Shown one piece after another: positions 30,613-33,600 of a stretch of DNA of 64,000 bases. Origin of the DNA: Escherichia coli (GTDB taxonomy: Bacteria > Pseudomonadota > Gammaproteobacteria > Enterobacterales > Enterobacteriaceae); NCBI RefSeq assembly GCF_041886205.1, contig NZ_CP169029.1. One strand, 5' to 3'. A program made the position numbers. Positions within the stretch are counted from its first letter, which is position 1; every line of letters starts with the position of its first letter.

Positions 30613-33600
30613 TGACACTAACGCCCGCACATTGCTGCGGGCTTTTTGATTCATTTCGCAAATGTGCTGACATTTTCCCCTCTAATCCGTACCATACACG
30701 CCACAGTTTTTATATCAGATTTCTTATGCTGGGCGTTCCGGCATGACGCATACTCTTCTGATGCCATATAACGAATTGAGTCGCTTTTAAATGTCGCAAA
30801 ATCAAGAAATTAGTAAGAAAGAACAATACAACCTGAACAAATTACAAAAACGCCTGCGTCGTAACGTGGGCGAAGCCATTGCTGACTTCAATATGATTGA
30901 AGAAGGCGATCGCATCATGGTTTGCCTCTCAGGGGGTAAAGACAGCTATACCATGCTGGAGATTCTGCGCAATTTGCAGCAAAGCGCGCCAATCAATTTT
31001 TCGCTGGTGGCTGTTAACCTCGATCAAAAGCAACCGGGCTTCCCGGAACACGTTCTGCCCGAGTATCTTGAAAAGCTGGGCGTTGAGTACAAGATTGTGG
31101 AAGAGAACACTTACGGTATCGTGAAAGAGAAGATTCCGGATGGTAAAACAACATGTTCTCTGTGTTCTCGTCTTCGTCGCGGTATCCTTTATCGCACCGC
31201 AACGGAACTGGGGGCGACGAAGATCGCGCTGGGTCACCATCGTGACGATATCCTGCAAACGCTGTTCTTAAATATGTTCTACGGCGGCAAGATGAAAGGT
31301 ATGCCTCCGAAACTGATGAGCGATGATGGCAAACATATCGTTATTCGTCCGCTGGCCTACTGCCGCGAGAAAGATATTCAGCGATTTGCCGATGCAAAAG
31401 CGTTCCCGATTATTCCGTGCAACCTGTGCGGTTCACAGCCTAACCTGCAACGACAAGTGATTGCTGACATGTTGCGTGACTGGGATAAACGTTATCCGGG
31501 GCGTATCGAGACGATGTTCAGCGCGATGCAGAATGTGGTGCCGTCGCATCTGTGCGATACCGACCTGTTCGATTTTAAAGGCATTACCCACGGTTCTGAA
31601 GTGGTTAACGGGGGGGATCTGGCGTTTGATCGCGAAGAGATCCCACTACAACCGGCGGGCTGGCAGCCTGAAGAAGATGAAAATCAGTTGGATGAGTTAC
31701 GGCTGAATGTGGTTGAAGTGAAATAACCCGGATAGCGCCCGATGCGCAAGCGTATCGGGCTACTCTTATGGAGGCCGGATAAGACGCGGTCAGCGTCGCA
31801 TCCGGCAATCCCGAATAAGATGTTTACTCTTGCACCCGGCAATTCAACATTTCATTATTTTAATAACCGCACCCGGCACGTTTTTCCTTTAATCTTCCCG
31901 CCCTGTAACTGTTTCCATGCTTTATGAGCAACAGCCTGACGGACCGCGACATAGACATGCGCCGGATGCACGGCGATTTTGCCAATATCTGCGCCATCAA
32001 GCCCGATATCTCCTGTCAGTGCACCTAATACATCACCCGGGCGCATTTTGGCTTTTTTTCCGCCATCGATACACAACGTTGCCATTTCTGCTTCCAGCGG
32101 CACAATGGAACTATTAGCTGGCGGCGTTTGCCAGTTAAGTTTTATCTGCAACATGTCAGAAATGATATTGGCCCGCTGTGCTTCTTCCGGAGCACAGAAA
32201 CTGATCGCCAGACCGCTATTTCCTGCACGAGCTGTACGACCGATGCGATGTACATGAACTTCAGGGTCCCACGCCAGCTCAAAGTTCACCACCAGCTCAA
32301 GCGATTTAATATCCAGACCACGCGCAGCAACATCAGTCGCAACCAGTACACGGGCGCTACCGTTAGCAAAACGTACCAGGGTCTGATCGCGATCGCGTTG
32401 CTCCAGATCGCCGTGTAACGACAATGCACTTTGCCCTACTTCATTCAGCGCGTCGCAGACAGCCTGGCAATCTTTTTTGGTATTGCAAAACACCACACAA
32501 GAGGATGGCTGATGCAAGCTTAATAACCGTTGCAACAGAGGAATTTTGCCTTTGCTGGATGTCTCATAAAATTGTTGTTCAATAGGTGGCAGAGCATCTG
32601 TTGAGTCAATTTCAATCGCTAAAGGATCGCACTGCACTCTTCCGCTGATTGCGGCGATGGCTTCCGGCCAGGTTGCCGAAAACAGAAGCGTCTGCCGAGA
32701 TGCTGGCGCAAAACGGATGACATCATCAATGGCGTCACTAAATCCCATATCCAGCATGCGGTCGGCCTCATCCATCACCAGCGTATTCAACGCATCCAGT
32801 GATACAGTGCCTTTTTGCAGGTGATCCAGCAAACGGCCCGGCGTTGCCACGATAATATGCGGCGCATGTTGCAACGAATCACGCTGCATACCGAACGGTT
32901 GACCACCGCACAACGTCAAAATTTTGGTATTTGGCAGAAAACGCGCCAGCCGACGCAATTCACCTGCCACCTGATCCGCCAGTTCACGCGTAGGACACAG
33001 CACTAAAGCCTGGGTTTGAAATAGCGACGCATCAATTTGCTGTAACAAGCCGAGGCCAAAAGCCGCCGTTTTGCCGCTGCCGGTTTTCGCCTGCACGCGA
33101 ACATCTTTTCCGGCAAGGATCGCCGGAAGCGCGGCGGCCTGCACCGGCGTCATGGTTAAATAACCCAACTCATTAAGGTTCGTGAGTTGGGCGGGAGGCA
33201 AAACATTCAGGGTAGAAAAAGCGGTCACAATCTATTCTCGTGGTCATCGACGCAAAGTTAGCAGGCGCGTATCCTCGCAGATCTACGCTCACGATGCGAC
33301 AATTTAATCGGTTCTTCATCGGGTGGTGGGTCAGGCATGGGTTGCGGGCGAGGGATCGGATCGGGCACTGGAACAGGATCGCCAGGAATCGGTTCAGGGA
33401 CAGGAATTTGCAAATAAATAAGTGTCGTCATATTTCCCTCCGGTCATTGGGTGGACTCTTAAAGGGTAGACGCTGATAAATAACAGGCAAAAAAAAGCCG
33501 ACTCATCAAAGTCGGCGTCGTACGAATCAATTGTGCTATGCAGTAATTCAAAAAAGGAAGTAAGACAATATGGAGCGCAACGCCCATCGCTTGACGTTGC

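What the first reader, a model, noticed from the sequence alone, without database searches (positions are those of the whole stretch)
33258..33431. Unlisted 57-codon proline-rich ORF with a strong ribosome-binding site immediately upstream of dbpA
On the minus strand, ccGGAGGgaaatATG opens a 57-codon frame encoding MTTLIYLQIPVPEPIPGDPVPVPDPIPRPQPMPDPPPDEEPIKLSHRERRSARIRAC, ending about 30 nt before the dbpA GTG start. It fell below the ORF track's length cutoff. The peptide is 37 percent proline in alternating PxP units and contains PPP/DPPP, which is a classic EF-P-dependent stalling context. Its placement suggests either a real small protein or a leader peptide whose translation modulates dbpA. 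I do not recognise it as a named gene, but I cannot rule out that it is already catalogued.
Basis: seen in the sequence. Interest (0 to 1): 0.6.

Follow-up and report, generated by a model that had tools for sequence, protein, structure and literature searches.

The report
Known small protein gene ynaL
The 57-codon proline-rich frame upstream of dbpA is the already catalogued E. coli small-protein gene ynaL, so it is not a discovery, although its last third is frozen at the nucleotide level in a way that suggests it also carries a signal controlling dbpA.

Summary
The ORF is real and lies exactly where stated (window 33431..33258, minus strand). It has a GGAGGG ribosome-binding site, and its TAA stop is 29 nt before the dbpA GTG.

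It is not new. It is ynaL (b4743, "proline-rich small protein YnaL", Pfam PF23677). It is annotated in 5392 of 5426 complete E. coli genomes. VanOrsdel et al. 2018 detected it as a chromosomally tagged protein. No function has been reported.

Comparative analysis of 35 loci from about 13 enterobacterial genera showed:
- The order zntB-fnrS-ynaL-dbpA is always kept.
- The proline-rich core (codons 18-40) is under protein-level purifying selection. dN is about 0.12, dS is saturated, and 52% of synonymous codon pairs differ, the same as in dbpA.
- Codons 41-46 and 50-56 show essentially no synonymous change (0 of 917 codon pairs) and keep the rare codons AGA, AGG and ATA. This points to an overlapping nucleotide-level element, probably a GNRA-capped RNA hairpin, at a fixed 81-84 nt from the dbpA start.
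- The PPP motif is common (110 of 120 homolog clusters) but lost in E. albertii and the Citrobacter youngae group.

The leader-peptide and EF-P idea remains untested.

The parts
33258..33431 (-). ynaL coding sequence: 57 codons plus a TAA stop at 33260-33258
   Evidence: ORF list and sequence. RefSeq annotates it as ynaL, 'proline-rich small protein YnaL'. It matches Pfam PF23677 at 136.8 bits.
33436..33441 (-). Shine-Dalgarno sequence GGAGGG, 4 nt upstream of the ynaL ATG
   Evidence: GGAGGG or a close variant plus ATG is kept in most of the 30 ORFs examined; it is degraded to AAAGGG or AAGGGG in several Escherichia and Pseudocitrobacter loci.
33387..33431 (-). Variable N-terminal part (codons 1-15). 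It is poorly conserved in sequence and length.
   Evidence: Protein alignment A1 and the ORFs.
33312..33380 (-). Proline-rich core, codons 18-40 (DPVPVPDPIPRPQPMPDPPPDEE), under protein-level purifying selection
   Evidence: Median dN is about 0.12 and dS about 1.2 (saturated). 720 of 1395 synonymous codon pairs differ, as in dbpA at 50%.
33321..33329 (-). PPP, codons 35-37 within DPPPD. It is predicted, not shown, to depend on EF-P.
   Evidence: Sequence. It is present in 110 of 120 homolog clusters. It is PSP in E. albertii and the C. youngae group, and PPQ in C. amalonaticus S646.
33293..33317 (-). Block B1, GAAGAACCGATTAAA(T/A)TGTCGCATC. Codons 41-46 show no synonymous variation.
   Evidence: It can pair with the dbpA start region (98.4% of cells paired, no compensatory change; duplex -10.6 kcal/mol, shuffle p about 0.06-0.12). 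This pairing is inconclusive.
33264..33284 (-). Block B2, AGATCTGCGAGGATACGCGCC (codons 50-56, RSARIRA). It is nearly nucleotide-invariant and uses the rare codons AGA, AGG and ATA.
   Evidence: There were 0 of 917 synonymous codon-pair differences for B1 plus B2. There was 1 synonymous state gain against 31 expected.
33267..33288 (-). Candidate RNA hairpin GCGU-AG-AUCU-[GCGA]-GGAU-ACGC. The inner stem carries a GNRA tetraloop. The outer stem is formed by the variable codons 48-49 pairing with the invariant ACGCGCC.
   Evidence: It is the local minimum-free-energy fold in 18 of 25 distinct sequences. The Kosakonia loop change GCGA to GAGA keeps GNRA. The shuffle z-score is only -0.8, and no Rfam family matches.
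33229..33257 (-). ynaL-dbpA spacer of 29 nt. It contains the only dbpA ribosome-binding-site-like motif, ACGAGA (33241-33236).
   Evidence: The spacer is 14-30 nt in other genera, while the distance from B1 to the GTG is fixed at 81-84 nt.
31855..33228 (-). dbpA (ATP-dependent RNA helicase DbpA), with a GTG start. Its first codons (GTGACCGCTTTTTC, block B4, 33215-33228) are also nearly invariant.
33463..33490 (-). Candidate ynaL promoter. TTGCCT (33490-33485) overlaps the FnrS terminator tail, followed by a 16-nt spacer and the conserved block CTACCCT (33469-33463).
   Evidence: The block is conserved in an alignment of 19 genera. It falls below the consensus scanner's threshold. This is inference only.
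33493..33610 (-). FnrS small RNA with its intrinsic terminator (stem at 33516-33497), immediately upstream of ynaL
   Evidence: Rfam RF01796 at 134.8 bits, terminator scan, and the K-12 annotation fnrS b4699.

Best explanation
This is ynaL, a genuine and already catalogued small-protein gene. It forms the promoter-proximal cistron of a conserved ynaL-dbpA unit in Enterobacteriaceae.

Shown here:
- The frame, its Shine-Dalgarno sequence and its position next to dbpA are conserved across about 13 genera.
- The proline-rich core evolves like a protein, with dN much lower than dS, so the peptide sequence itself is under selection. It is predicted to be an extended, non-globular polyproline rod.
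- The last third of the gene (codons 41-46 and 50-56) is also frozen at synonymous sites and sits at a fixed distance from the dbpA GTG.

Inferred:
- That frozen part is an RNA-level cis element embedded in the coding sequence. The most likely form is a GNRA-capped stem-loop, possibly together with an anti-start-region segment.
- Because dbpA has a GTG start and only a CGAGA ribosome-binding site, ribosomes translating ynaL to its stop would remodel this element and deliver or permit initiation on dbpA. This is translational coupling.
- Since the ynaL frame contains DPPPD in most lineages, the ribosome flux through it is expected to be sensitive to EF-P. That sensitivity is not essential, because some lineages lack any Pro-Pro.

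Confidence by step: identity with ynaL about 0.97; peptide sequence is functional about 0.8; an embedded nucleotide-level element exists about 0.9; it acts on dbpA translation by coupling about 0.4.
For: - Identity: annotated as ynaL in 5392 of 5426 complete E. coli genomes; Pfam YnaL at 136.8 bits; identical 57-aa sequence listed as an SPA-tagged, immunoblot-positive and ribosome-profiling-positive small protein in PMC6001520.
- Conservation and synteny: 162 homologs. zntB-fnrS-ynaL-dbpA is kept in all 29 scanned loci and in six further genera.
- Protein-level selection: codons 18-40 have dN about 0.12 and saturated dS, and 52% of synonymous codon pairs differ against 50% in dbpA.
- Nucleotide-level constraint: 0 of 917 synonymous differences in codons 41-46 and 50-56. 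There was 1 synonymous state gain against 31 expected (Poisson 1e-12). The rare codons AGA, AGG and ATA are invariant.
- Geometry: the distance from B1 to the dbpA GTG is 81-84 nt in all loci.
- Hairpin: it is the local minimum-free-energy fold in 18 of 25 sequences, and the only loop change keeps GNRA.
- Fold: the AlphaFold model has no secondary structure and pTM 0.22, with pLDDT about 90 only over the extended residues 21-40.
Against: - No experiment bears on function or on coupling. The only paper found that mentions ynaL reports detection only.
- RNAalifold finds no strong consensus structure (-8.2 kcal/mol).
- Both arms of the candidate helices are invariant, so there is no compensatory covariation.
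- The B1:B4 duplex is not better than shuffles (p about 0.06-0.12) and is not robust in partition-function folding across species.
- The hairpin's outer stem is absent in several Enterobacter and Citrobacter sequences, and the mean shuffle z-score is only -0.8.
- The frozen blocks could instead act at the DNA level.
- The ynaL stop lies 14-30 nt from the GTG depending on genus, which is rather far and variable for simple termination-reinitiation.
Confidence: 0.6

Rival explanations
1. ynaL is purely a regulatory leader. Its only role is in cis. Ribosomes stall at DPPPD when EF-P activity or peptidyl-transfer is limiting. The stalled ribosome covers block B1 or refolds the downstream RNA and so changes dbpA translation or transcription, as with SecM-secA, TnaC or Salmonella mgtP. 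The released peptide would have no function.
For: DPP, PPP and PPD are among the strongest EF-P-dependent motifs (established knowledge: Ude 2013, Doerfel 2013, Peil 2013). PPP is present in 110 of 120 homolog clusters. It lies two codons upstream of B1, the segment that can pair with the dbpA start. The N-terminus is variable while the C-terminal two thirds are conserved, as in arrest peptides. The 3' third is frozen at the nucleotide level and keeps a fixed distance to the dbpA start.
Against: E. albertii and the Citrobacter youngae group (cluster P0060, seen on 185 contigs) have PSP and no Pro-Pro at all, yet keep the ORF, blocks B1 and B2, and dbpA. About 40 residues are conserved, more than fits in the ribosome exit tunnel. 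No mutually exclusive alternative structures were found. The SPA-tagged product accumulates (PMC6001520).
Confidence: 0.2
2. The frozen nucleotides in codons 41-56 act at the DNA level. They would be an internal promoter or a transcription-factor site for dbpA lying inside ynaL. One candidate is a -10-like TAAATT/TAAAAT in B1, with B2 forming the 5' stem-loop of a dbpA-only transcript. In that case ynaL and dbpA would be expressed independently.
For: B1 contains TAAATT (4 of 6 matches to the -10 consensus), or TAAAAT (5 of 6) in the ATG-type species. The single variable position in B1 falls inside this hexamer. A 5'-terminal hairpin would be a classic mRNA stabiliser. No RNA structure is statistically established.
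Against: There is no -35-like hexamer at 16-18 bp, and the upstream bases are freely varying third-codon positions. The consensus scan finds no promoter in 33100-33800. G-U pairs in the candidate hairpin favour the sense RNA strand.
Confidence: 0.15
3. The ORF is translated noise. It would be a chance open frame in the dbpA 5' UTR, conserved only because the UTR is conserved.
For: The composition is low-complexity. The peptide has no predicted fold and no solved relatives.
Against: The proline-rich zone has saturated synonymous change but about tenfold lower non-synonymous change. Indels are in frame. The Shine-Dalgarno sequence and ATG are conserved. The protein was detected experimentally.
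Confidence: 0.02

Closest known systems
YnaL (E. coli K-12 b4743; RefSeq WP_001296046.1 'proline-rich small protein YnaL'; Pfam PF23677 YnaL-like)
   Same: The 57-aa sequence is identical. The position between fnrS and dbpA is the same. The match covers the full length of the Pfam model.
   Different: Nothing differs; this is that gene. Its function is still unreported in the searchable literature.
Proline-codon leader ORFs and arrest peptides that control a downstream gene: Salmonella mgtP in the mgtCBR leader, SecM-secA, TnaC-tnaAB (recalled from established literature)
   Same: It is a short ORF directly upstream of the regulated gene. It contains consecutive Pro codons expected to need EF-P. 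The peptide is conserved towards the C-terminus. The RNA between the stall site and the downstream start is conserved.
   Different: At 57 aa, ynaL is longer than these leaders. Its product accumulates. PPP is dispensable in two lineages. No alternative RNA structures or stalling have been demonstrated. Membership was tested only in part and is not established.
Translationally coupled upstream cistrons, where the downstream gene has a weak start and depends on translation of the upstream ORF
   Same: The orientation is the same. The gap is 14-30 nt. dbpA has a GTG start with only CGAGA as a ribosome-binding site. The geometry is conserved.
   Different: Coupling was not measured. The gap is longer than the classic overlapping ATGA or TAATG arrangements. 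The upstream peptide is itself under strong selection.
TonB proline-rich spacer and proline-rich antimicrobial peptides (apidaecin, oncocin)
   Same: It has alternating X-Pro repeats with a PRP/PQP flavour and an extended polyproline-type conformation.
   Different: The TonB NCBIfam hit scores 20.8 bits against a cut-off of 315, and the Pfam TonB_N hit has E = 0.75. The proline zone is acidic rather than cationic. These are compositional resemblances only.

Membership tests
YnaL (Pfam PF23677 / RefSeq ynaL, b4743) | Significant full-length match to the family profile | tested here: met
   PF23677 with i-Evalue 2.2e-40 and 136.8 bits, covering residues 1-57 of a 57-position model.
YnaL (Pfam PF23677 / RefSeq ynaL, b4743) | Same sequence and same locus as the named gene (between fnrS and dbpA) | tested here: met
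   A 100% DNA match carries a ynaL CDS at the same position. K-12 ynaL lies at 1409308-1409481 between fnrS and dbpA. The peptide is identical to the one in the table of PMC6001520.
YnaL (Pfam PF23677 / RefSeq ynaL, b4743) | The product is actually synthesised | not testable with these tools
   From the literature only: a chromosomal SPA tag gave an immunoblot-positive band, and the ORF was also positive in tetracycline ribosome profiling (PMC6001520).
EF-P-dependent polyproline leader or arrest peptide | Consecutive proline codons conserved as the functional core | tested here: inconclusive
   PPP occurs in 110 of 120 clusters and some Pro-Pro in 115 of 120. E. albertii and the C. youngae group have PSP with no Pro-Pro and an otherwise intact locus.
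EF-P-dependent polyproline leader or arrest peptide | Mutually exclusive RNA structures that link ribosome position to downstream expression | tested here: inconclusive
   RNAalifold gives a weak consensus. The B1:B4 pairing is conserved but has no covariation and is not better than shuffles. A local GNRA hairpin is plausible.
EF-P-dependent polyproline leader or arrest peptide | Ribosome stalling and an effect on the downstream gene | not testable with these tools
   This needs ribosome profiling or toeprinting with and without EF-P, plus reporter fusions.
Translationally coupled bicistronic unit | Same strand, short conserved intercistronic distance, weak downstream initiation signals | tested here: met
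   The spacer is 14-30 nt in 35 loci. dbpA has a GTG start and a CGAGA motif only.
Translationally coupled bicistronic unit | Downstream translation depends on upstream translation | not testable with these tools
   This requires start-codon or premature-stop mutants of ynaL with a dbpA reporter.
Known RNA family (Rfam) | Covariance-model match for the conserved 3' blocks | tested here: not met
   No Rfam match at E up to 10 in 33150-33500. Only FnrS reaches its gathering score nearby.
TonB-type proline-rich domain | Score above the family cut-off | tested here: not met
   NCBIfam TonB scores 20.8 bits against a cut-off of 315. Pfam TonB_N has E = 0.75.

The most novel reading that the evidence does not exclude
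The 3' third of ynaL would double as a conserved RNA switch: a GNRA-capped hairpin plus a segment complementary to the dbpA start. Translation through the DPPPD-containing frame would set how often that switch opens. Synthesis of DbpA, a helicase that remodels the 23S rRNA peptidyl-transferase region during 50S assembly, would then be tuned by how well ribosomes perform difficult peptide-bond formation, meaning EF-P status or peptidyl-transferase-centre competence. This would be a feedback loop from translation chemistry to ribosome assembly, possibly with the released YnaL peptide also acting on DbpA or on pre-50S particles.
Probability: 0.15. Interest if true: 0.6.

Novelty: already known. 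Interest (0 to 1): 0.22.

Why it matters
As a gene call it does not matter, because ynaL has been in EcoCyc/RefSeq and Pfam since the 2018 small-protein screen.

Two things remain open: what YnaL does, and why a third of its codons are frozen at synonymous sites directly upstream of a weakly initiating ribosome-assembly helicase gene. That dual constraint, peptide-level in one part and nucleotide-level in the other, gives a concrete and cheap experimental handle on dbpA regulation, about which essentially nothing has been published. The experiments are synonymous recoding, PPP mutants and efp backgrounds.

Tried and rejected
- Mimicry of the 23S rRNA DbpA target (hairpin 92 region) by the ynaL-dbpA leader: only chance 6-8-mers were shared. 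Rejected.
- FnrS pairing with the ynaL-dbpA RNA: the duplex energy is no better than shuffles. Rejected.
- Rfam family for the conserved blocks: none, even at E up to 10.
- Repeated element elsewhere in E. coli: the 57-nt B1-B2 segment is single-copy in 5392 genomes.
- Sigma-70 promoter inside 33100-33800: the scanner finds none. Manual -10/-35 and sigma-54 readings of B1 and B2 did not hold across genera.
- Alternative-frame 48-aa ORF (33319..33173) as the cause of the frozen bases: its ATG is not conserved (GAC or GAG in several genera). Rejected.
- Antisense 78-aa ORF (33240..33476, plus strand): judged by inspection to be a by-product of CCN codons, whose complements contain no stop codons; not tested further.
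- Simple hairpins UCGCAUC-N9-GAUCUGCGA and GCG-AGGAUA-CGC (a CsrA-like site): each is broken by the Kosakonia and/or Raoultella changes. They are less consistent than the GNRA model.
- Solved-structure relatives: none.
- Literature on the ynaL, dbpA, EF-P, fnrS and zntB links: only PMC6001520 was relevant. Its supplements are not held.
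Full report
**Observation**

On the minus strand of the window an ATG at 33431 opens a 57-codon frame that ends with TAA at 33260-33258. GGAGGG lies 4 nt upstream of the ATG. The dbpA GTG is at 33228, 29 nt after the stop. The one numerical slip concerns proline content. It is 16 of 57 residues (28%), or 48% within residues 9-41, not 37%.

The neighbourhood is the E. coli zntB - fnrS - (this ORF) - dbpA / ttcA locus. 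FnrS matches Rfam RF01796 at 33610..33493 with 134.8 bits. Its terminator ends about 65 nt before the ATG.

**Identity**

A 571-nt query around the ORF matches 5392 of 5426 complete E. coli genomes. The feature under the match is ynaL, 'proline-rich small protein YnaL' (WP_001296046.1). In K-12 MG1655 it is b4743, YP_009518775.1, at 1409308-1409481, between fnrS and dbpA. The peptide matches Pfam PF23677 (YnaL-like) over its whole length (E 2.2e-40).

VanOrsdel et al. 2018 (PMC6001520) list this exact 57-aa sequence among 36 short ORFs whose chromosomal SPA-tagged products were seen by immunoblot in LB cultures. They note it was also an unidentified positive in a tetracycline-arrested ribosome-profiling screen. 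They remark only that it lies next to dbpA and may be in an operon with it.

No other paper in the searchable library discusses ynaL. The finding is therefore a rediscovery of a known gene of unknown function.

**Conservation**

A protein search returned 162 homologs, all carrying PF23677. They come from Escherichia, Citrobacter, Salmonella, Enterobacter, Klebsiella, Raoultella, Kosakonia, Leclercia, Lelliottia, Pseudocitrobacter, Superficieibacter and others.

A scan of one genome per species gave 29 loci. In every one the order is zntB, fnrS, ynaL, dbpA, with the ynaL stop 23-29 nt before the dbpA GTG. The same arrangement holds in Klebsiella and Raoultella (14-nt spacer) and in Kosakonia, Leclercia and Superficieibacter (27-30 nt).

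A Shine-Dalgarno-like sequence and the ATG are present throughout, although the GGAGGG is weakened in a few lineages. Length differences are in frame, for example a 33-nt deletion in E. coli E69 and a 10-residue duplication in a Salmonella cluster.

The first 15 or so residues vary freely. From residue 18 on, the consensus is DPVPxPDPIPRPQPMPDPPPDEEPIK(L/M)SH...RSARIRAC.

**Two different kinds of constraint**

I threaded codons onto the alignment for 31-35 distinct sequences.

In codons 18-40, third positions vary freely:
- 52% of same-amino-acid codon pairs differ between 13 genera, the same as in 300 codons of dbpA (50%).
- Median Nei-Gojobori dN is about 0.12 against a saturated dS of about 1.2. 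For dbpA the values are 0.065 and 1.6.
- This is ordinary protein-level purifying selection, so the amino-acid sequence of the proline-rich core matters.

In codons 41-46 (CCG ATT AAA TTG/ATG TCG CAT) and 50-56 (AGA TCT GCG AGG ATA CGC GCC), the pattern is the opposite:
- There are no synonymous differences at all among the 13 genera (0 of 917 pairs).
- Over 35 loci there is 1 synonymous state gain where the rate in codons 18-40 predicts 31 (Poisson about 1e-12).
- The three rarest E. coli codons (AGA, AGG, ATA) are invariant.
- The distance from the first block to the dbpA GTG is 81-84 nt in every locus, although the stop codon moves.
- Between the two blocks, codons 47-49 vary in both amino acid and nucleotide.
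- The first five dbpA codons are also almost invariant.

The last third of ynaL therefore carries a nucleotide-level element superimposed on the coding sequence.

**What the element might be**

Several possibilities were excluded:
- Rfam has nothing here, even at E up to 10.
- The element is single-copy in E. coli.
- It does not resemble the 23S rRNA target of DbpA.
- It does not pair notably with the adjacent FnrS.
- RNAalifold on a 23-sequence alignment gives only a weak consensus.

Two structural candidates emerged.

1. Block B2 folds locally into AUCU-[GCGA]-GGAU, a GNRA tetraloop closed by U-G.
   - It is extended by an outer stem in which the variable codons 48-49 pair with the invariant ACGCGCC.
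   - This is the local minimum-free-energy fold in 18 of 25 distinct sequences.
   - The only loop change seen (Kosakonia, GCGA to GAGA) preserves GNRA. G-U pairs favour the sense strand.
   - The shuffle statistics are weak (mean z -0.8).
2. Block B1 (GAAGAACCG...GUCGCA) can pair with the dbpA start region (U-GUGACCGCUUUUUC).
   - 98.4% of cells are paired and nine one-sided changes are tolerated as G-U.
   - There is no compensatory change, because both arms are invariant.
   - The duplex is not significantly better than shuffles, and the helix is not robust in ensemble folding.

A DNA-level role cannot be excluded. One form would be an internal -10-like TAAATT/TAAAAT in B1. However, it lacks a -35 element, and the consensus scan finds no promoter.

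**The polyproline idea**

DPP, PPP and PPD are strong EF-P-dependent contexts (established knowledge). E. coli YnaL translation is therefore predicted to be sensitive to EF-P.

Across 120 homolog clusters, PPP is present in 110 and some Pro-Pro in 115. E. albertii and the Citrobacter youngae group (a cluster seen on 185 contigs) have DPSPD and no Pro-Pro at all. Citrobacter amalonaticus S646 has DPPQE. All keep the ORF, both frozen blocks and dbpA. Stalling at PPP therefore cannot be the indispensable core of whatever this locus does, though it may modulate it.

**The protein**

AlphaFold with the 30-sequence alignment predicts no secondary structure and no globular fold (pTM 0.22). Confidence is high only for the extended residues 21-40. 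No chain in the PDB is related. Hits to TonB-type proline-rich regions are compositional and far below the cut-offs.

**Transcription context**

Between the FnrS terminator and the ynaL Shine-Dalgarno sequence there is one conserved block, GTCTACCCT (33471-33463). It lies 16 nt downstream of the conserved TTGCCT at the terminator tail. This is a possible weak promoter. Read-through from fnrS or zntB is the alternative. None of this can be decided without transcript mapping.

**Verdict**

My best account is a bicistronic ynaL-dbpA unit in which three things hold:
- The proline-rich peptide is itself selected.
- The 3' third of ynaL doubles as an RNA element placed at a fixed distance from dbpA's weak GTG start.
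- Translation of ynaL promotes dbpA initiation.

The first two points are shown by the substitution patterns. The third is inference. A pure EF-P-sensing leader and a DNA-level promoter or operator are the main rivals.

Novelty is 'already known' and interest is low. The one feature worth following up is the synonymous-site freeze, which I did not find described in the literature I could search.

Noticed in passing
window 33264-33311 (minus strand; ynaL codons 41-46 and 50-56): Synonymous sites are completely frozen across about 13 genera (0 of 917 codon pairs), and the rare codons AGA, AGG and ATA are invariant. The adjacent proline-rich codons and dbpA, by contrast, are saturated with synonymous change. 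The cause is not established; the candidates are a GNRA hairpin, a segment complementary to the dbpA start, or a DNA site.
   Followed up: partly
window 33493-33610 (minus strand): The FnrS small RNA (Rfam RF01796, 134.8 bits) with its terminator lies directly upstream of ynaL. Its U-tail plus GCCT is conserved and could double as a -35-like TTGCCT for ynaL.
   Followed up: partly
window 33463-33471 (minus strand): The block GTCTACCCT is conserved in an otherwise variable spacer, 31 nt before the ynaL ATG. It is a possible -10 element (CTAcccT) that the consensus scanner misses.
   Followed up: partly
window 34703-34750 (minus strand): A 15-codon ORF ([15 protein letters not shown]) ends 13 nt before the zntB start. 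RefSeq annotates it as 'protein YnaN' (b4773 in K-12). It is another catalogued mini-ORF that sits below the ORF track's length cut-off.
   Followed up: partly
window 33173-33319 (minus strand) and proteins P0003, P0007, P0106, P0110: An alternative-frame 48-codon ORF overlaps the ynaL 3' end and the dbpA 5' end. A few E. coli assemblies carry frameshifts that fuse YnaL residues 1-35 to this frame, giving 81-85-aa products. Its ATG is not conserved outside Escherichia, Citrobacter and Enterobacter.
   Followed up: partly
window 33240-33476 (plus strand): A 78-codon antisense ORF spans all of ynaL. I read it by inspection as a by-product of the CCN proline codons, whose complements contain no stop codons.
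   Followed up: partly
L009 2501-2641 (E. coli E69) and protein P0053 (Salmonella enterica): There is natural in-frame length variation in the X-Pro repeat zone: an 11-residue deletion in E69 and a 10-residue duplication in a Salmonella cluster. The proline rod tolerates changes in repeat number.
   Followed up: no
protein P0023 (an Escherichia-like YnaL variant): The middle segment reads ...PDPILARNPCLTHRDEEPIK.... This looks like a frameshift followed by a restoring frameshift just before the frozen block. It could be a sequencing error or a natural variant that keeps only the 3' part in frame.
   Followed up: no
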